DNA from: a virus
Reading direction: 5' to 3' (one strand)
UHGV virus genome: UHGV-0318484
DNA length: 6,734 nt
Positions 1 through 6,734 of the stretch are shown here, piece by piece (position 1 is the first letter of the stretch; every line of letters starts with the position of its first letter). Position numbers and translations under genes: made by a program. The notes beneath the pieces are model-generated. The model searched no databases and was not told the origin of the DNA. It worked only from the letters and a program-made list of their open reading frames with translations.

Positions 1-501
1 ATTTCCGCCGCAGGTGAGTCTTGGCGGTAAAAATGTGGCCTGGCTGCACTCTGAAGTCACCGCATGGATGGCCGGGCGCATTGCCGGACGCAAACGGGGG
101 TACGACGCATGATGATGCCTGTTCTGCAAAAACTCCCTTTTTCTGGCTTGCCTTTTTCCGGCATTTGCGGATATAGTTTTTCCGTTGCCGCAAAATCGGC
201 AGCCGGGCGTGAGAACCCGAGTATGTTATCGGCGACATATGACGCGCCATGCGTCTTTTTTTGTGTCGCAATCAACGCCACAGAGCACCAGATTATGGTG
301 TGGCGTGTGGTTTGCCGTGCAGGTATGATCCTGTTCGCAATCGCATGTTATGCCTCTGAGTCAATGGTAGCTCAGGCGGGGCAGCCTCCGGGCTGGCCGG
401 TTTCCGATAACGCCGGTATTCTCACCCCCGTCTGGGCTATCGCCATCGAGCGTGAGAACTCCGGCGATAGCGTCATTTACGCTGTTATCGGAGGTTGCCT
501 T

Positions 502-699
502 ATGGCTACGACCCTTACCCCTTCACACCCTGAATTTGTCTTTGTGTTTGCGGCTGTCCGTCGCGCAGACCGTCATCCCCGTATCTGCATGCTTCGCACC
601 GTCGCCGGTGATGAACGCAGTGCCCGCCGTTCCCTTGTCCGTGACTATGTGCTCTCCCTTGCTGCCCGTCTGCCGGTGGTGGAGGTGTCCCGTGCGTAA
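502..699 (+). CDS. Hypothetical small protein, 65 aa ([65 protein letters not shown]); first gene of a two-gene coupled pair
   Basis: ATG at 502 preceded by GGAGG (490-494) with 7-nt spacing; in frame with the long track ORF 64-699, whose upstream part looks like non-coding read-through. Ends in tandem stops TAATAA (697-702). No recognisable family. Confidence 0.4.
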
Positions 700-979
700 T
701 AAAAAAGCCCCTCAGACCGTCTCAGCGCGTCATGACGCCCGTGAACACCTCAGCATTGAGGCTTATCATAAGCTCAACCGTGCCAGCGCCGTATCCCAGT
801 TTGTTGGGGGTGATTTGATTCACCGTGAACTCTCCGGCCTGCATCAGCTCTACATTCCGCATATTTTCAGCTACCTGAATGAAGATATTGATTTTGTGCT
901 GAATGAGCTGAAAGCCAAAGGCCTGTGCCGCGATTTTCTCGCCCAGCAGAAAGACCGGGGAGACAGGACGCATGTTTGA
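692..979 (+). CDS. Hypothetical protein, 95 aa, GTG start ([28 protein letters not shown]...[19 protein letters not shown]); second gene of the coupled pair
   Basis: GTG at 692 preceded by GGAGG (681-685) with 6-nt spacing; overlaps the upstream stop by 8 nt, suggesting translational coupling. This is the 3' part of track ORF 452-979, whose 5' part overlaps the better-supported frame of gene 502-699. Followed by an intrinsic terminator. Confidence 0.45.
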
Positions 980-986
980 TTTTCCC

Positions 987-997
987 CAGCTCCACCA
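987..997 (+). other. Possible att core: CAGCTCCACCA (CCAGCTCCACCA from 986), identical to the 3' acceptor end of tmRNA (ssrA)
   Basis: A 12-nt identity to the recalled E. coli ssrA 3' terminus, about 185 bp upstream of a P4-type integrase start. P4-family integrases recombine at the 3' ends of tRNA/tmRNA genes. The sequence upstream of 986 is not ssrA, so this is a core copy only. Confidence 0.3.
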
Positions 998-1030
998 CTT
1001 GCTCTTCCGGATACGTCCGGAGAAATCCTA

Positions 1031-1066
1031 AAAGCCCGCATGGCACAAGCTCTGCGGGCTTTTTTG
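1031..1066 (+). terminator. Rho-independent terminator
   Basis: Stem GCCCGCA (1034-1040) pairs with TGCGGGC (1053-1059), extended by flanking A/T pairs, followed by TTTTTT (1060-1065). Lies downstream of the 692-979 gene. Confidence 0.6.
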
Positions 1067-1110
1067 TGTCTACCATTGTCCGAGGATATCCAGCTAAATC
1101 CAGTGATTAT

Positions 1111-1160
1111 TGGTATACGTTTAGGTATACGGTAGGATGTATACCTAAACGCGTATACCA
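1111..1160. promoter_or_regulatory. Imperfect 20-bp inverted repeat with four GTATAC motifs, overlapping the presumed int promoter; candidate Int arm-type sites or operator
   Basis: TGGTATACGTTTAGGTATAC (1111-1130) and GTATACCTAAACGCGTATACCA (1139-1160) are reverse complements apart from a 2-nt insertion. GTATAC occurs at 1113, 1125, 1139 and 1153. The repeat lies 20-70 bp upstream of the int start. Confidence 0.45.
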
Positions 1161-1181
1161 ATTCATGAAGGAGCGGCCACA

Positions 1182-2393
1182 GTGGCAAGAACGACACGCC
1201 CCCTGACCAACACAGAAGTTCTGCGCGCTAAAGCGTTAGAAAAGGATCTAACGTTACATGATGGCGATGGCCTTTTTCTGCTCGTTAAAACGAACGGTAA
1301 GAAGTTGTGGCGTTTCCGTTATCAACGTCCAGCAACAAAACAGCGGACAATGATGGGGCTTGGTGCTTTCCCCGCCCTTTCACTTGCTGATGCTCGAAGG
1401 TTAAGAGCGGATTACCTTGCTTTGTTGGCTAATGGTATAGACCCACAAGTTCAAGCTGAATTTATCGAAGAACAACAACAGATAGCTCTAGACAGTATTT
1501 TTTCGACTGTTGCGACCAACTGGTTCCAGATAAAAAGCAAAAGCGTTACCCCTGATTACGCTAAAGATATATGGCGCTCACTGGAAAAAGACGTATTCCC
1601 TGCCATCGGGGAGATTCCTGTCCAGCAAATAAAAGCCCGAACACTAGTTGAAGCCCTTGAGCCAATCAAAGCTCGTGGAGCACTCGAGACAGTGCGCCGA
1701 CTTGTACAGCGCATTAACGAGATAATGATTTATGCCGTAAACACTGGTCTGATTGATGCCAATCCAGCATCAGGTGTTGGGATGGCCTTTGAAAAGCCCA
1801 GAAAACAAAACATGCCGACGCTGAGGCCAGAAGAATTACCAAAGCTGATGCGTTCTTTGTTCATGTCAAATCTGTCTGTTCCGACTCGCTGTCTCATTGA
1901 ATGGCAGCTTCTGACTCTAGTGCGTCCTGCTGAAGCTTCCGGTGCTCGATGGGCAGAGATCGATCTCGATGCAAAGCTCTGGATGATTCCAGCCGAACGG
2001 ATGAAGGCCAAACGAGAGCACATAGTTCCTTTATCCACGCAGGCATTAGAAATTCTAGAAGTGATGCAACCTATTAGCGCACATCGTGAGCATGTTTTCC
2101 CAAGCAGAAATGACCCTAAACAACCAATGAATAGCCAGACTGCGAATGCCGCGCTTAAGCGCATTGGTTATGGTGGGAAGCTTGTTGCTCATGGATTACG
2201 TTCTATAGCAAGTACAGCACTAAATGAAGCTGGTTTTAATCCGGACGTAATTGAAGCGGCACTTGCTCACAGTGATAAAAATGAAGTTCGAAGAGCATAC
2301 AATCGTTCAACTTACCTTGAACAACGTATAGACTTGATGAATTGGTGGGGTGAATTTGTGCACAACCGCCACCGCCTCATGCAAGCGATTTAA
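1182..2393 (+). CDS. int: P4-family tyrosine integrase (site-specific recombinase), 403 aa, GTG start
   Basis: AAGGAG (1168-1173) 8 nt before GTG at 1182. The N-terminus (LTLHDGDGLFLLVKTNGKKLWRFRYQRP) matches the P4-type integrase N-terminal DNA-binding domain. The C-terminus carries the HGLRSIAST box and a tyrosine in RRAYNRSTYLEQR, consistent with tyrosine recombinase catalytic residues. Tandem stops TAATAA. Confidence 0.92.
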   Translation: MARTTRPLTNTEVLRAKALEKDLTLHDGDGLFLLVKTNGKKLWRFRYQRPATKQRTMMGLGAFPALSLADARRLRADYLALLANGIDPQVQAEFIEEQQQIALDSIFSTVATNWFQIKSKSVTPDYAKDIWRSLEKDVFPAIGEIPVQQIKARTLVEALEPIKARGALETVRRLVQRINEIMIYAVNTGLIDANPASGVGMAFEKPRKQNMPTLRPEELPKLMRSLFMSNLSVPTRCLIEWQLLTLVRPAEASGARWAEIDLDAKLWMIPAERMKAKREHIVPLSTQALEILEVMQPISAHREHVFPSRNDPKQPMNSQTANAALKRIGYGGKLVAHGLRSIASTALNEAGFNPDVIEAALAHSDKNEVRRAYNRSTYLEQRIDLMNWWGEFVHNRHRLMQAI

Positions 2394-2420
2394 TAAGATT
2401 GCACAGCAAAGGAGTCTTAA

Positions 2421-3779
2421 ATGCCAAATAACTACCATCAATACATCGAAGACGTTAGTGATGATATAAAGACATGTCTTGAAGGAATGGGATGCCAACC
2501 CATACTTTTTGTTGGATCGGGATTAACCAAGAGATATCTTTCTGGCCCAAACTGGGAAGAACTTCTTCAGCAACTTGCTAATGAATGTCCTAACATCGAT
2601 AAAAGATTTGCCTATTATAAACAGAAATACCCCGAGTTGATTGATATCGGCAGTGTATTTTCTGATTCTTATAACGAGTGGGCATGGGGTGATGGAGAGA
2701 AAGAATTTCCAGCAGAGTTATTTGATGCAGGCAATGAGCCAAGTATTTATTTTAAATACAAAGTATCTAGTATTTTCAACTCATTGTTACAAGAAAAAGA
2801 AATCGTAAACAACGGTGAAATTGAACTTCTGAGAAAGATTCACCCTCATTCAATCATCACAACAAATTACGACAAATTACTTGAATCGATATATCCTGAG
2901 TTTACCCCCATTATAGGCCAAAAAATCCTTTACGCTAATCACGGTAGCATTGGTGAAATACTTAAAATACATGGTTGCTGCTCCACTCCTGAAAGCATAA
3001 TAATAAACCGCGATGACTACGATGACTTCATAAAGAAGAAGAAATATTTAAGCGCAAAACTGCTTACTTTCTTTGCTGAACACCCTCTTCTATTTATAGG
3101 TTACAGCGCAGAAGACTCGAACATAAAAAACATACTATCTGATATTGATGAACTACTTTCAGAAAATGGAGATGTCATTCCAAATATATACATTTTAGAA
3201 TGGACGAGCAAACAAAATGAAAGTGAATACCCACGCCGTGAACGGCTGATTCAAGTATCTGCAAACAAAAGCATTAGAATAAAAAGTATAGTAGCAAATG
3301 ACTTCTCTTGGGTATTTTCAGCGTTTGGCGCGAACAGAGCACTTGATAACATAAATCCCAAATTATTGAGGGCACTTTTAGCTCGCACTTACGATCTCGT
3401 CAGAACTGATATACCTCGCAATCCTGTCCAAGTTGATTACCGAGTTTTATCAAGCATTAGCGAGTCAGAAGGTGAATTAGCGAAATTATATGGTATCGCC
3501 ACATCGTCAGATGGTATGGCATTTAATGCCAGTTATCCTTTTACTTTAACCACGCTAGGGCAATCACTTGGTTTCAAAGGCTGGCATGATGCGAACAAAC
3601 TATTAGAAGTAGTTAAAAACATCACGAACGTAGACATCAAGACATTCGATAACAAATACCACTATGCAATAATGAACGGTGATGAGATTCAGTCCCATAG
3701 ATATTCAAACTATCTTCGAGAACTCCTCGAAAAGGTTAGGGATGGAGAGGAGTTTGAGTTAGGAATAAAGGCTCCATAA
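2421..3779 (+). CDS. SIR2-like (sirtuin/DHS-like NAD-binding fold) protein, 452 aa, with an unassigned C-terminal domain of about 200 aa; candidate NAD+-depleting anti-phage effector in the P4 int-cos hotspot
   Basis: AAGGAG (2409-2414) 6 nt before ATG; only 27 nt after the int stop. Motifs typical of defence-associated SIR2 domains (as in ThsA, DSR, SIR2-HerA): PILFVGSGLTKRY (Gly-rich NAD loop, aa 27-39), ITTNYD (Asn at about aa 149), KIHGC (His at about aa 184), LLFIGYSAEDSNI (aa 223-235). Markedly AT-rich compared with neighbours. Terminator follows. Confidence 0.85.
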   Translation: MPNNYHQYIEDVSDDIKTCLEGMGCQPILFVGSGLTKRYLSGPNWEELLQQLANECPNIDKRFAYYKQKYPELIDIGSVFSDSYNEWAWGDGEKEFPAELFDAGNEPSIYFKYKVSSIFNSLLQEKEIVNNGEIELLRKIHPHSIITTNYDKLLESIYPEFTPIIGQKILYANHGSIGEILKIHGCCSTPESIIINRDDYDDFIKKKKYLSAKLLTFFAEHPLLFIGYSAEDSNIKNILSDIDELLSENGDVIPNIYILEWTSKQNESEYPRRERLIQVSANKSIRIKSIVANDFSWVFSAFGANRALDNINPKLLRALLARTYDLVRTDIPRNPVQVDYRVLSSISESEGELAKLYGIATSSDGMAFNASYPFTLTTLGQSLGFKGWHDANKLLEVVKNITNVDIKTFDNKYHYAIMNGDEIQSHRYSNYLRELLEKVRDGEEFELGIKAP

Positions 3780-3807
3780 TTATTCATATAGCCTTACTAC
3801 TTTTTAT

Positions 3808-3830
3808 GGCCGCTTTAATAGCGGCTTTTT
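3808..3830 (+). terminator. Rho-independent terminator downstream of the SIR2-like gene
   Basis: Stem GCCGCT (3809-3814) pairs with AGCGGC (3820-3825), loop TTAAT, followed by TTTTT (3826-3830). Confidence 0.55.
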
Positions 3831-3966
3831 CACAGCATTATTCATGCTTCTAGCACGATATGATGAACCGCAATAATCATAGCTAACAGGATTAATTTAA
3901 AGCATTACTCCTCGACTGAAGCGTGCTGTCATGCGAAAAAAATTTAAACTACCACGTTAGCGCGCA

Positions 3967-3985
3967 GTGCTTTCCCCGCCTCGCC
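3967..3985 (-). other. cos site: 19-nt P2/P4 cohesive-end sequence (GGCGAGGCGGGGAAAGCAC on the minus strand)
   Basis: Plus strand reads GTGCTTTCCCCGCCTCGCC, the exact reverse complement of the recalled P2/P4 cohesive end. Position between the accessory region/int and psu matches P4 genome organisation (left end cos-accessory-int; right end sid-delta-psu-cos). Confidence 0.8.
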
Positions 3986-4087
3986 CGCCCGCTTTGCGGG
4001 GCGGTTTTAATGCAGTTGCACTGACACGCTCAGACCGCGCCGGGAATGGTGCGGTCTGCAGAAAATGAGGCAGGAAAACGCATGCAA

Positions 4088-4119
4088 AGCCATGCACCTT
4101 ATCGATGCATGGCTTTTTT
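4088..4119. terminator. Hairpin with flanking T/A tracts between cos and psu; possible bidirectional terminator
   Basis: 9-bp stem AGCCATGCA (4088-4096) pairs with TGCATGGCT (4106-4114), followed by TTTTTT on the plus strand; on the minus strand it is followed by TTTGCATGCGTTTT. Lies just 3' of psu. Confidence 0.5.
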
Positions 4120-4149
4120 CAGTAAAAACGGGCGGATTTTCGGGGAATT

Positions 4150-4722
4150 TTACACAGACTGACGTGATGCCAGTTGCGCACTTTTACGCGAAAAAATCAT
4201 GTTCTGCGCAGGGGTGAATTTTTCACGGCTGTCATCCACCGAAGCCGCGTCAGGCCTGAATCCGATGGCCGTTAAAATGTCGCTATCCTGTGCGGAATAA
4301 TTAATTTTTTCACCCTTCGCAAGCCAGGACAGGAGGGCTTCACGCAGGGCATCTGTGGCACGCTGTATGGCACAGTTTCGGGCAATGGCCGTCAGCTCAC
4401 TGTAGCCCATCAGCTCCGGTGCCAGTGCCGCCGCCAGTGCTGTGCCGTGCTGCTGCATAAAATCATTCAGCCGGTCGCGGATGCTGATGTGCTGAACGGC
4501 TTCATGCGAACGAATATAACGACCGGCGGCCTGATTCACCTGCCATTTTCTGACTTCGATAATATTGCGTAATTCGTCCAAGCGACTGACGTTTCTGCCT
4601 TCTCCTGACAGAAGCCGCAGATATTCCTGTTCGGCCGCAGCCAGCTCATTTTTGCGTTGCAGCCATGCTGCTTTGTTATTCTGACAGGTGTCAAAGGCCT
4701 GCTGTAAGGCTGTGCTTTCCAT
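4150..4722 (-). CDS. psu: Psu, polarity suppression protein (P4 capsid decoration protein and Rho antagonist), 190 aa
   Basis: Length and sequence (MESTALQQAFDTCQNNKAAWLQRKNELAAAEQEYLRLL...SRQSV) match recalled P4 Psu; third gene of the sid-delta-psu late operon reading toward cos. Confidence 0.92.
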   Translation of the reverse strand: MESTALQQAFDTCQNNKAAWLQRKNELAAAEQEYLRLLSGEGRNVSRLDELRNIIEVRKWQVNQAAGRYIRSHEAVQHISIRDRLNDFMQQHGTALAAALAPELMGYSELTAIARNCAIQRATDALREALLSWLAKGEKINYSAQDSDILTAIGFRPDAASVDDSREKFTPAQNMIFSRKSAQLASRQSV

Positions 4723-4795
4723 CGTTATCTCTTTCTCATCATGCTGAAGAATAAAAATACGGTGTGCGGCGACGGCCGGTGTTAACCGGCAGCCC

Positions 4796-5296
4796 TCATT
4801 CCAGACGCAGCGAATATGATTGTGTTTTTAACCGTACTGGCGGCAGTTCCTGTTTTTCATGCAGGCGTTCTGCCAGTTCGTCCGGTGTGACCGGGCGGAC
4901 AATGAAGCGGTTGATGGTCTGAAGCGTTTTAAACACCAGACCACATCCCGGATCCGTGCACACATAAAAACGCTCGGTGACTTCCTGAGACAGACGCCGC
5001 GATGTTCTTGACAGTGCAAGGCCTTTACATCTCCGACAACAATATCCGGTAACAAGCATTCTTTTCGGGCGTTTCATACTACCGGAGGCTGACGTCAGTG
5101 AATCGCGGTATCTCTGTTTGCCTGAAATGTATTCCATTCCTGAATCTTTACAGTCAGAGAAAAAGCTTTCACTCGCTTCAAATGTCGCAGAGCAATAAAT
5201 ATTCCGGCACTGTGCAATCATTATCTTGGTGCCATCGTCCATGAAATGTGCGCGACGGGTGTGAGCAACATGTCCACACGACGGGCAGTAAATCAT
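4796..5296 (-). CDS. delta: Delta, late-gene transcriptional activator (tandem Ogr-like zinc-finger domains), 166 aa
   Basis: Two Ogr-like Cys motifs (CPSCGH...CRNIYC and CCRRC...CTDPGC); length matches P4 Delta. Its start overlaps the sid stop in ATGA (5293-5296). Confidence 0.92.
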   Translation of the reverse strand: MIYCPSCGHVAHTRRAHFMDDGTKIMIAQCRNIYCSATFEASESFFSDCKDSGMEYISGKQRYRDSLTSASGSMKRPKRMLVTGYCCRRCKGLALSRTSRRLSQEVTERFYVCTDPGCGLVFKTLQTINRFIVRPVTPDELAERLHEKQELPPVRLKTQSYSLRLE

Positions 5297-6027
5297 GACA
5301 GCAGTCCTCTGGCCTTAAGCTCTGCTCCCTGCTGGTCTATTTTGTCCTGCCACACCTTGCGCTGTGCCGGTGTGCCTGCCACCTCATAATCCATGTGCGG
5401 GAGTGTTGCCGCTGACAGTCCGGTCAGCCGGAGAACCGGCTCGCCGGTGAGGCTGATTTGCATCTGTTTTATTTTCTGTTCCAGCGATGATTTCACCTGC
5501 TGCATGACAGCCTTTTCCGGCGCGACGTAGCCCTGATGGCCGGTGGTGTTGGCGAGCGGATTTTCCTGTACCAGGATACTCAGATGCATTGCCCGGACAA
5601 GCGCCTCACAGGTTTCATTCAGGGCGTGTTCCAGCTCATGCTCTGCATACAGACTCAGAAGGTGATGATGTGCCTTCCGGTAGGCGGTGGCCGTGCTGTC
5701 ACACGCCCCTTTCAGGCGTTCACGTTCGAAATTCAGCACCACGGCCAGATTGTCATATTCCTGTACCAGCTCCCGGCGTGCCACGCGCTCAATGTGGCGC
5801 TGTTTCAGCTCGTCGCTCAGGACACCACCGGCTGCACGAAAGGCCGTGCGCCAGTCGTCAGCGTCGTTTCCGTCGGCCTGCGCCAGCGCATTTTTTTCCT
5901 GCTCTGCCCGTTCAATGGCCGTGATGGTCTCATCCATCAGGCGGGCGTTCTCAAGATGAGCGGCTCTGGCCTTTTCCAGTTGTGCCAGCGCGGGTTGCAG
6001 ATATTCAGGGATGGTGTTGTCAGACAT
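5293..6027 (-). CDS. sid: Sid, capsid size-determination (external scaffold) protein, 244 aa
   Basis: Sequence MSDNTIPEYLQPALAQLEKARAAHLENARLMDET... matches P4 Sid. Start placed at ATG 6027 (GAGGAG 7 nt upstream) rather than the in-frame GTG at 6045 used by the ORF track. Confidence 0.88.
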   Translation of the reverse strand: MSDNTIPEYLQPALAQLEKARAAHLENARLMDETITAIERAEQEKNALAQADGNDADDWRTAFRAAGGVLSDELKQRHIERVARRELVQEYDNLAVVLNFERERLKGACDSTATAYRKAHHHLLSLYAEHELEHALNETCEALVRAMHLSILVQENPLANTTGHQGYVAPEKAVMQQVKSSLEQKIKQMQISLTGEPVLRLTGLSAATLPHMDYEVAGTPAQRKVWQDKIDQQGAELKARGLLS

Positions 6028-6061
6028 TTTCCGGCTCCTCGTCACTTCAGGTTAAGAAAAT

Positions 6062-6117
6062 TGTGACGTACACCGGACAACAACACGACGCATTGCAGAT
6101 GTGCCAGCCCTGACACA
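6062..6117 (-). promoter_or_regulatory. Psid-type late promoter with two TGT-N12-ACA activator (Delta/Ogr) dyads
   Basis: TGTGCCAGCCCTGACACA (6100-6117) is centred about 81 nt upstream of the sid ATG, consistent with a -55 activator site. A second dyad, TGTGACGTACACCGGACA (6062-6079), is centred 38 bp closer. P2/P4 late promoters are defined by TGT-N12-ACA near -55. Confidence 0.6.
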
Positions 6118-6196
6118 GGAGACTCATCCTCAGACCGGCAAGCCAGGAAAAGGTCGCAGGAAAAACCGGCTTACTGTTTGTTTTTTTATATTTTAC

Positions 6197-6300
6197 TGTT
6201 CACCTCTGTTCACCATAAGAAAAAAGATAAGTAATACAGTAAGTTAAATGGTGAACAATCGCAGTAATGACTGTTCACCGTCTGTTCACCACTGTTCACC
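6197..6300. repeat. Iteron cluster: five direct and one inverted exact copy of TGTTCACC; candidate replication origin (P4 ori/crr-type alpha-binding sites)
   Basis: TGTTCACC at 6197, 6207, 6272, 6283 and 6293; the inverted copy GGTGAACA at 6250; degenerate copies (TGTTTACT, TGTTTGTT) flank. Spacing of 10-11 bp between neighbours. The octamer matches the recalled type I iteron bound by P4 alpha primase-helicase. Confidence 0.7.
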
Positions 6301-6404
6301 CGCTCATGGACTTTTTGTGCTGTTTACTACTGTTTGTTTTTATTAATTCGCCGGGAATGAATAAGAAGAAACGATTTGTATTTCACTATAAAAATTACGA
6401 ATTG

Positions 6405-6434
6405 CTTTAAGTGGCTTTAAATGACTTTAAGTGG
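6405..6434 (+). repeat. Three tandem 10-bp units (CTTTAAGTGG / CTTTAAATGA / CTTTAAGTGG); possible regulator-binding array upstream of the rightward late promoter
   Basis: Direct reading of the sequence; helical-turn periodicity; ends 26 bp before the TGT-N12-ACA at 6460. Confidence 0.3.
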
Positions 6435-6459
6435 GAATGAACAAAAAACACACAGTCAT

Positions 6460-6477
6460 TGTAAGGCGGCCGGAACA
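6460..6477 (+). promoter_or_regulatory. TGT-N12-ACA dyad; candidate activator site of a PLL-type late promoter driving the AlpA/Vis-like gene
   Basis: TGTAAGGCGGCCGGAACA; a -55 site here would put the transcript start near 6523, about 57 nt before the ATG at 6580. Divergent from Psid, as in P4. Confidence 0.4.
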
Positions 6478-6579
6478 AATCCCCCCTGTTGCGTCTGCCA
6501 AAAAGATTCACAAAATAAAGCGCTACCCGAAGCCGGACGGACTTATCCGGTGCTGTATGGACATTAACGAGGTAGCCCG

Positions 6580-6734
6580 ATGCAAGCTGTTTTTTCTTCC
6601 CCGTCTCCCTCCCCTGTGACGCCACTGATGCCGCTGCCGGACATCACGCAGGAGCGTTTTTTACGTCTGCCGGAAGTGATGCACCTGTGCGGCCTGTCAC
6701 GTTCGACCATCTATGAACTCATCCGTAAGGGGGA
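6580..6734 (+). CDS. AlpA-family HTH protein (Vis/excisionase-like regulator), 5' partial; runs off the window end
   Basis: GAGG (6569-6572) 7 nt before ATG at 6580. Translation MQAVFSSPSPSPVTPLMPLPDITQERFLRLPEVMHLCGLSRSTIYELIRKG contains the AlpA-type helix-turn-helix signature. In P4 the vis gene occupies this position. Confidence 0.8.
   Translation, partial: MQAVFSSPSPSPVTPLMPLPDITQERFLRLPEVMHLCGLSRSTIYELIRKG

What the first reader, a model, noticed from the sequence alone, without database searches (positions are those of the whole stretch)
6170..6330. TGTTCACC iteron cluster between the divergent late promoters
Five direct and one inverted perfect octamer, plus degenerate copies, phased at about one helical turn. 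The octamer is the one I recall as the alpha primase-helicase binding iteron of P4 ori and crr, so this is probably the replication origin (or cis replication region) of the element. The alpha gene itself is outside the window. Its placement between Psid and the PLL-like promoter also suggests possible replication-transcription coupling.
Basis: partly seen in the sequence, partly recalled or inferred. Interest (0 to 1): 0.45.

Follow-up and report, generated by a model that had tools for sequence, protein, structure and literature searches.

The report
Known phage P4 replication origin
The repeated TGTTCACC octamers are the well-known replication origin (ori) of satellite phage P4, carried here by a 98%-identical P4-like element of E. 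coli, so the feature is real but already described.

Summary
There are six perfect TGTTCACC octamers, five direct and one inverted, at 6197-6300. Chance predicts 0.22, and all six lie on one face of the helix. The region is 98% identical to phage P4 (X51522). The six octamers coincide one-for-one with P4's annotated "ori type 1 repeats" inside its annotated origin of replication, between sid and ORF88/vis. It is ori, not crr. The same layout (2 direct, ~35-bp AT-rich spacer, 1 inverted, 3 direct) is kept in 30 P4-like elements from other genera. Iteron columns are about 90% conserved against 47% elsewhere. A second octamer cluster (crr) sits just after the alpha primase-helicase gene, whose C-terminus matches the solved P4 origin-binding domain (1KA8). 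Two caveats apply. The "degenerate copies" are not supported. The window also closes on itself: base 6734 continues into base 1, and a unique joint at 986-990 replaces orf151-alpha-crr. This 6.7-kb sequence therefore holds ori but neither alpha nor crr, while all full-length relatives hold both. Replication-transcription coupling remains untested speculation.

The parts
6197..6204 (+). type I iteron 1 (TGTTCACC)
   Evidence: Exact match. Equals P4 'ori type 1 repeat' 9406-9413. 81% column conservation in 30 other-species loci.
6207..6214 (+). type I iteron 2
   Evidence: Equals P4 9396-9403. 91% conserved.
6215..6249 (.). 35-bp AT-rich spacer (83% A+T), the presumed unwinding region; holds the conserved AATACAG at 6233-6239
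   Evidence: Composition. The 6220-6240 windows are the only non-iteron 8-mers conserved as strongly as the iterons (0.85-0.95).
6250..6257 (-). type I iteron 3 (inverted)
   Evidence: Equals P4 9353-9360. It was used as the alignment anchor, so its own conservation figure is biased.
6272..6279 (+). type I iteron 4
   Evidence: Equals P4 9331-9338. 90% conserved.
6283..6290 (+). type I iteron 5
   Evidence: Equals P4 9320-9327. 95% conserved.
6293..6300 (+). type I iteron 6
   Evidence: Equals P4 9310-9317. 95% conserved.
6404..6433 (.). three tandem 10-bp 'ori type 2 repeats' (GCTTTAAGTG-like); role unknown
   Evidence: family D3. Equals P4 9176-9205 'ori type 2 repeat'. Not conserved across genera in the alignment.
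6100..6117 (.). TGT-N12-ACA dyad, the inferred Delta/Ogr activator site (-55) of Psid, which reads leftward into sid
   Evidence: A dyad sits at the same distance (-148 +/-2 from the inverted iteron) in 29 of 30 other-species loci. Assignment to -55 is an inference from established P2/P4 late-promoter knowledge.
6062..6079 (.). second TGT-N12-ACA dyad 38 bp closer to sid, the inferred -18 Delta site of Psid
   Evidence: The same 38-39-bp pair is seen in the Pantoea and Rosenbergiella group. The role is inferred.
6460..6477 (.). TGT-N12-ACA dyad on the vis side, the inferred activator site of the PLL-type promoter, which reads rightward
   Evidence: An exact dyad at this position is found in only 3 of 30 other loci.
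5293..6027 (-). sid (244 aa), the left-hand neighbour of ori
   Evidence: Translation. Matches the P4 sid CDS and is annotated Sid in L004.
6580..6734 (+). 5' part of vis/ORF88 (AlpA family), which continues at window 1-112
   Evidence: Translation. Contiguity of 6734 with 1 shown. P4 ORF88 annotation.
986..990 (.). joint (CCAGC) fusing the first ~20 nt of orf151 to the last 12 nt of ssrA; it replaces orf151-cnr-alpha-crr
   Evidence: Absent from 5,426 E. coli genomes and from three public collections.

Best explanation
The cluster is the ori (ori1) site of a P4-like satellite prophage of E. coli, homologous to and nearly identical with the origin of phage P4 itself. The six TGTTCACC octamers are type I iterons. 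In P4 they are bound by the C-terminal winged-helix domain of the alpha protein, a single polypeptide with origin-binding, SF3 helicase and DnaG-type primase activities. Because the iterons lie on one helical face on both sides of a 35-bp AT-rich stretch, bound alpha is expected to assemble there, open the AT-rich DNA, load itself as helicase and prime synthesis. This needs the second iteron cluster, crr, in cis, downstream of alpha. Shown here: sequence identity with the annotated P4 origin; conservation of the architecture across genera; the paired ori and crr octamer clusters; and the presence of an alpha with the solved origin-binding domain in full-length relatives. Inferred from P4 literature and not tested here: alpha binding, melting at the AT-rich spacer, bidirectional theta replication, and independence from DnaA.
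For: The window matches P4 X51522 at 96.9% over 835 bp and 98% over 381 bp, with all six octamers identical in sequence and position. The GenBank annotation places 'ori type 1 repeat' x6 inside 'origin of DNA replication' at exactly these sites, and lists the same octamer x10 in crr next to alpha. Full-length chromosomal relatives that are 98% identical to the window run ssrA-int-SIR2-cos-psu-delta-sid-ori-vis-cI/eps-orf151-DUF5375-alpha(777 aa)-crr. Their crr carries five perfect octamers. Residues 671-770 of alpha match PDB 1KA8, the P4 origin-binding domain, at E=1e-63. In 80 loci found through alpha, TGTTCACC clusters at two fixed places: about 1.7 kb upstream of alpha and immediately downstream. 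De novo, the octamers shared by those two regions are CTGTTCAC, TGTTCACC or TGTTCACT in most loci with alpha at 80% identity or more. The 2 + AT-rich + 1 inverted + 3 layout holds in 30 loci from other genera, with five non-anchor iterons 90% conserved against 47% for other columns. Variant octamers (CCTTCACC, TCTTCACC) occur at both ori and crr in the Pantoea group. No DnaA box or GATC lies in the region. Papers held state that alpha is essential for P4 replication and binds the origin through its C-terminal winged helix (PMC8628076; PMC4889955; PMC6092414).
Against: Nothing argues against the identity. On function in this particular sequence, the window contains no alpha (tblastn found nothing) and no second octamer cluster. 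Its ends are contiguous, with a unique joint where orf151-alpha-crr should be. If the window is a complete molecule, this ori lacks both its initiator and its cis partner. The primary binding and mapping papers could not be read here, so the biochemical steps rest on the database annotation, secondary citations and my own knowledge.
Confidence: 0.95

Rival explanations
1. It is a genuine P4-type ori by descent but is inert in this molecule. The 6734-base sequence would be a closed circle (or one unit of a tandem) that lost orf151, cnr, alpha and crr. The origin would then have neither its initiator gene nor the cis-required second site, and could not support autonomous replication.
For: Window base 6734 continues into base 1 in P4 and in L003. 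The joint at 986-990 fuses the orf151 start to the ssrA end. No alpha-like coding sequence and no second iteron cluster are present. crr is annotated as 'cis required region for replication' (10.64898/2026.03.30.715334).
Against: The origin of the window is unknown, and the joint could be an assembly artefact or one junction of a tandem array that ends in a complete copy. The joint was found in no public collection or complete E. coli genome. All ten long contigs read that carry the same SIR2 protein continue past eps as in P4, and eight of them reach alpha within the stretch fetched.
Confidence: 0.3
2. The octamers are the crr (cis replication region) rather than ori.
For: The same octamer is used in crr.
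Against: P4 crr consists of two 120-bp direct repeats directly downstream of alpha, each annotated with five octamer copies, perfect or one-off, in a different arrangement. The window cluster lies between sid and vis and aligns base for base with ori. No 120-bp repeat is present.
Confidence: 0.01
3. The repeats are primarily transcription-factor sites that control the divergent late promoters Psid and PLL, or they couple alpha binding to late transcription, and they do not serve initiation.
For: They lie in the 400-bp gap between two divergent promoters with activator-type dyads.
Against: The late-promoter activator motif (TGT-N12-ACA) is a separate conserved element 80 bp or more away. The same octamers recur downstream of alpha, where there are no late promoters. 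The octamer variants change together at ori and crr. P4's annotation assigns them to the origin. From my own knowledge, P4 in-vitro replication does not need RNA polymerase (Diaz-Orejas et al. 1994; not verified here).
Confidence: 0.04
4. The cluster is a chance or low-complexity repeat.
For: None.
Against: Six copies against 0.22 expected, with 0 of 200 shuffles reaching 6. The layout is conserved in register across genera.
Confidence: 0

Closest known systems
Phage P4 ori (ori1), X51522 positions about 9300-9420 within rep_origin 9086-9809
   Same: Same six TGTTCACC iterons with the same orientation and spacing, the same AT-rich spacer, the same flanking sid and ORF88/vis genes, and the same type 2 repeats. 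Identity is 98%.
   Different: Only a few point differences in the spacers. The host element integrates at ssrA with a different integrase and carries a SIR2 gene in place of gop/beta/cII. In the window as given, alpha and crr are missing.
Phage P4 crr (cis replication region), X51522 4291-4590
   Same: Uses the same type I octamer and is the partner site of ori for alpha.
   Different: It consists of two 120-bp direct repeats located just after alpha, with a different iteron arrangement. It is not present in the window.
Iteron-type plasmid and PICI origins (for example the E. coli PICI EcCICFT073 pri-rep ori, with iteron sets flanking an AT-rich region)
   Same: Directly repeated initiator-binding sites flank an AT-rich melting region (PMC6092414).
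   Different: The P4 initiator is itself the primase-helicase. The origin is bipartite (ori plus a distant crr). No DnaA box is present. PICI Pri-Rep proteins differ in sequence from P4 alpha.

Membership tests
P4 ori1 (cis-acting origin site) | Six type I iterons TGTTCACC arranged as 2 direct, 1 inverted and 3 direct, spaced near the helical repeat | tested here: met
   One-for-one with the P4 annotation.
P4 ori1 (cis-acting origin site) | AT-rich stretch of about 35 bp inside the iteron cluster | tested here: met
   6215-6249 is 83% A+T and is conserved across genera.
P4 ori1 (cis-acting origin site) | Position in the sid-vis (ORF88) intergenic region between the divergent late promoters | tested here: met
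   sid is at 5293-6027 on the minus strand and vis starts at 6580 on the plus strand. Activator-type dyads are at 6100-6117 and 6460-6477.
P4 ori1 (cis-acting origin site) | Sequence homology to the experimentally defined P4 origin | tested here: met
   98% identity over 381 bp.
P4 ori1 (cis-acting origin site) | Specific binding of the alpha C-terminal domain to the octamers, and replication starting here | not testable with these tools
   Known for P4 from literature that is cited but not readable here. Needs a footprint or EMSA and origin mapping.
Complete P4 oriI replicon (alpha + cnr + ori1 + crr) | An alpha primase-helicase gene with an origin-binding domain in the same element | tested here: not met
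   No alpha is present in the window (tblastn; ORFs and Pfam). It is present in all full-length relatives, with a 1KA8-type domain.
Complete P4 oriI replicon (alpha + cnr + ori1 + crr) | A second iteron cluster (crr) in cis | tested here: not met
   All six octamers of the window lie in ori, and the one-mismatch hits elsewhere are at the chance level. crr is present after alpha in relatives.
P4 crr | Two ~120-bp direct repeats carrying octamers, immediately downstream of alpha | tested here: not met
   No such repeat exists in 6040-6600, and the location is sid-vis.

The most novel reading that the evidence does not exclude
The window is a real 6.7-kb circular 'mini-P4' made when the element's integrase recombined attL (ssrA end, core CCGCCAGC) with a look-alike site (CCCCAGC, 7 of 8) at the start of orf151. 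The circle would keep int, a SIR2 defence gene, cos, psu, delta, sid, ori, vis, cI and eps, but would lack alpha and crr. It would be an origin-bearing, packageable, non-replicating derivative that could spread a defence gene by riding on a helper phage or on a co-resident full P4.
Probability: 0.12. Interest if true: 0.35.

Novelty: already known. Interest (0 to 1): 0.07.

Why it matters
The result matters little beyond correct annotation. The octamer cluster is the textbook P4 origin, found here in a P4-like prophage of the kind present in a large share of E. coli genomes. Its practical value is as a landmark. It shows that the window is a P4-like satellite and fixes the orientation of the late operons. 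Because ori needs alpha and crr, it also exposes the abnormal topology of this 6.7-kb sequence. The cross-genus alignment adds a small point: the whole origin layout, including an AATACAG motif in the AT-rich spacer, is conserved down to 57% alpha identity.

Tried and rejected
(1) I searched for the orf151'-ssrA' joint (a 38-mer) in the viral, genome and metagenome collections, and a 131-bp query in 5,426 complete E. coli genomes. Nothing was found, so the window's provenance stays open. (2) I searched PLSDB for a 6.7-kb plasmid counterpart and found none. (3) I looked up contigs encoding the exact SIR2 protein. Only long chromosomal contexts with full elements were returned. (4) I tried to read the primary P4 replication papers (Tocchetti 1999, Ziegelin 1993 and 1995, Christie and Dokland 2012) by DOI or guessed PMC id. 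None is held. A text search for TGTTCACC found no paper. (5) The sigma-70 promoter scan of 5950-6734 found nothing, as expected for activator-dependent late promoters. Its single 'terminator' hit is just the inverted and direct iteron pair at 6250-6279. (6) There are no DnaA boxes or GATC clusters at ori. (7) I considered the degenerate octamers as extra iterons and rejected them, because they are not conserved. (8) The exact TGT-N12-ACA dyad on the vis side is conserved in only 3 of 30 other loci. The PLL assignment therefore rests on identity with P4, not on family-wide conservation.

Full report
Observation. TGTTCACC occurs six times in the window, and all six copies lie within 104 bp. Direct copies start at 6197, 6207, 6272, 6283 and 6293, and one inverted copy is at 6250-6257. 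Dinucleotide-preserving shuffles predict 0.22 copies, and none of 200 shuffles reaches six. Start-to-start spacings are 10, 43, 22, 11 and 10 bp. At 10.5 bp per turn all six sit within 0.2 turn of one phase. A 35-bp stretch that is 83% A+T (6215-6249) separates the first pair from the inverted copy. The "degenerate copies" are weak. One mismatch adds nothing in the region. Two mismatches add only 6321 and 6436. The TGTTTGTT stretches are part of a 21-nt direct repeat that flanks the cluster, and the 6321-6348 stretch is not conserved in relatives.

Identity. A blastn search of 5900-6734 against phage records hits phage P4 (X51522 and NC_001609) at 96.9% over the full 835 bases. The features under the match are "origin of DNA replication", six "ori type 1 repeat" and three "ori type 2 repeat". 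The annotation table places the six type 1 repeats at P4 9310-9413, inside rep_origin 9086-9809, between sid and ORF88. Window 6100-6480 aligns with P4 9130-9510 at 98% identity without gaps, and every octamer is identical in sequence, orientation and position. The three type 2 repeats correspond to window 6404-6433. P4's other octamer site, crr, is a pair of 120-bp direct repeats at 4291-4590, just downstream of alpha (4636-6969). The window cluster is therefore ori and not crr.

Surroundings. The left neighbour is sid (5293-6027, minus strand), preceded by delta (Ogr_Delta) and psu (Psu). The right neighbour is vis/ORF88, starting at 6580. The only three TGT-N12-ACA dyads in the window all lie in this intergenic region, at 6062-6079, 6100-6117 and 6460-6477. 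From established knowledge of P2/P4 late promoters (Delta/Ogr sites centred near -55, with a second site near -18 in P4; my own knowledge, not re-read here), these fit a leftward Psid starting near 6053 and a rightward PLL starting near 6523. The iterons would then sit in the untranscribed gap. The sid-side dyad lies at a fixed distance from the iterons (-148 +/-2 from the inverted iteron) in 29 of 30 elements from other species. The vis-side dyad is exact in only 3 of 30. The region has no DnaA box and no GATC.

The element. Complete E. coli chromosomes hold 98%-identical DNA as a roughly 10.6-kb P4-like prophage next to ssrA. The order is int, a SIR2-family gene, cos, psu, delta, sid, ori, vis, ash/icd with the cI RNA, eps, orf151, a DUF5375 protein, a 777-aa primase-helicase (alpha) and then crr, followed by ypjA. 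The crr of that relative carries five perfect octamers plus variants. Residues 671-770 of its alpha match PDB 1KA8, the P4 origin-binding winged-helix domain, at E=1e-63. Papers held confirm that alpha is the essential primase-helicase and that it binds the origin through this C-terminal domain (PMC8628076; PMC4889955; PMC2777425; PMC6092414).

Comparative test. I collected 80 loci through alpha (57-99% identity), mostly Enterobacterales. TGTTCACC falls in two recurrent clusters: about 1.7 kb upstream of alpha and immediately downstream of it. Without assuming the motif, the octamers most often shared by these two regions are CTGTTCAC, TGTTCACC or TGTTCACT in most loci with alpha at 80% identity or more. 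I aligned the ori region of the window, P4 and 30 loci from other species. The 2 + AT-rich + 1 inverted + 3 layout is kept almost without indels. The five iterons not used as anchor are 90% identical to the window, against 47% for other columns. Only the AT-rich spacer around AATACAG (6233-6239) is as well conserved. In the Pantoea group (alpha 68-70% identical) the octamers are a mix of CCTTCACC, TCTTCACC and TGTTCACC at both ori and crr. This is what recognition of both sites by one protein predicts.

Mechanism. The best-supported account is the known P4 one. Alpha binds the phased iterons at ori and crr, opens the AT-rich spacer, acts as its own helicase and primes synthesis. What is shown here is homology, architecture, conservation, the ori/crr pairing and the presence of the origin-binding domain in relatives. 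Binding, melting, directionality and host-factor independence are taken from P4 literature that I could not open. The activator dyads are separate conserved elements, and the same octamers work at crr, where there is no late promoter.

An anomaly in the window. Base 6734 runs directly into base 1 in both P4 and the E. coli relative. Window 986-6734 equals L003 8001-13748, and window 1-990 equals L003 13749-14747, overlapping by the five bases CCAGC. The joint fuses the first ~20 nt of orf151 to the last 12 nt of ssrA. The attL and attR of the relative share CCGCCAGC, and the orf151 site reads CCCCAGC, a 7 of 8 match. The 6734 bases therefore behave as a closed circle or as one unit of a tandem, from which orf151, cnr, alpha and crr are missing. 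tblastn with alpha finds nothing in the window. The joint occurs in none of 5,426 complete E. coli genomes and in none of the viral, genome or metagenome collections. No plasmid record matches either. It may be an integrase-mediated aberrant excision, a tandem junction or an assembly artefact, and I cannot tell which. If it is real, this copy of ori lacks both its initiator and its cis partner.

Verdict. The feature is the already described P4 origin in a common P4-like prophage. Novelty: already known. Interest is low. The only open question is the topology of the window, not the iterons.

Noticed in passing
window 6734/1 and 986-990: The window is circularly closed: base 6734 continues into base 1. 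A unique CCAGC joint fuses the start of orf151 to the 3' end of ssrA, deleting orf151-cnr-alpha-crr. The orf151 site (CCCCAGC) resembles the att core CCGCCAGC shared by attL and attR of the full prophage. The joint is absent from every collection searched.
   Followed up: partly
window 2421-3779 (+): A 452-aa SIR2_2-domain protein sits in the int-cos defence hotspot, replacing P4's gop/beta/cII. The best PADLOC match is candidate system PDC-S25 (2e-84), with ThsA-like SIR2 similarity (1e-20). The exact protein is widespread in E. coli (1,523 collection blocks).
   Followed up: partly
window 1182-2393 (+) and 1100-1165: The integrase is ssrA-specific (CP4-57 site), not P4's own integrase. Inverted GGTATACG/CGTATACC repeats upstream of int also recur near the right end of the full prophage (L003 about 18400), and are probably arm-type integrase sites.
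   Followed up: no
window 6233-6239: AATACAG inside the AT-rich spacer of ori is as conserved across genera (0.95) as the iterons themselves. It could be a priming or unwinding signal. I know of no assigned role.
   Followed up: partly
whole window: GATC is strongly depleted: 7 sites against 25 +/- 4.7 expected. None lies between 4955 and 6734, which includes ori.
   Followed up: no
window 6404-6433: P4's 'ori type 2 repeats' (three tandem 10-mers, GCTTTAAGTG-like) lie between the iterons and the vis-side dyad. They are not conserved in other genera, and their function is unclear.
   Followed up: partly
window 171-447 (+): Rfam finds the P4 immunity RNA system: C4 antisense RNA (cI) at 360-447, its a1/b1 target at 171-223, and an isrK hit at 184-261.
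   Followed up: no
window 3967-3985 (-): There is an exact 19-nt P2/P4 cohesive-end sequence (GGCGAGGCGGGGAAAGCAC), so the sequence keeps an intact cos site and should be packageable by a P2-type helper.
   Followed up: partly
L002 (P4) 4281-4289: A perfect DnaA-box sequence, TTATCCACA, lies immediately before P4's crr, although P4 replication is regarded as DnaA-independent (my own knowledge). I did not check it in relatives.
   Followed up: no
L047, L052, L053, L073, L076, L077, L082, L083 near position 9767 (inside alpha): A TGTTCACC copy recurs at the same position inside the alpha coding region in several divergent loci. It may simply be conserved coding sequence.
   Followed up: no
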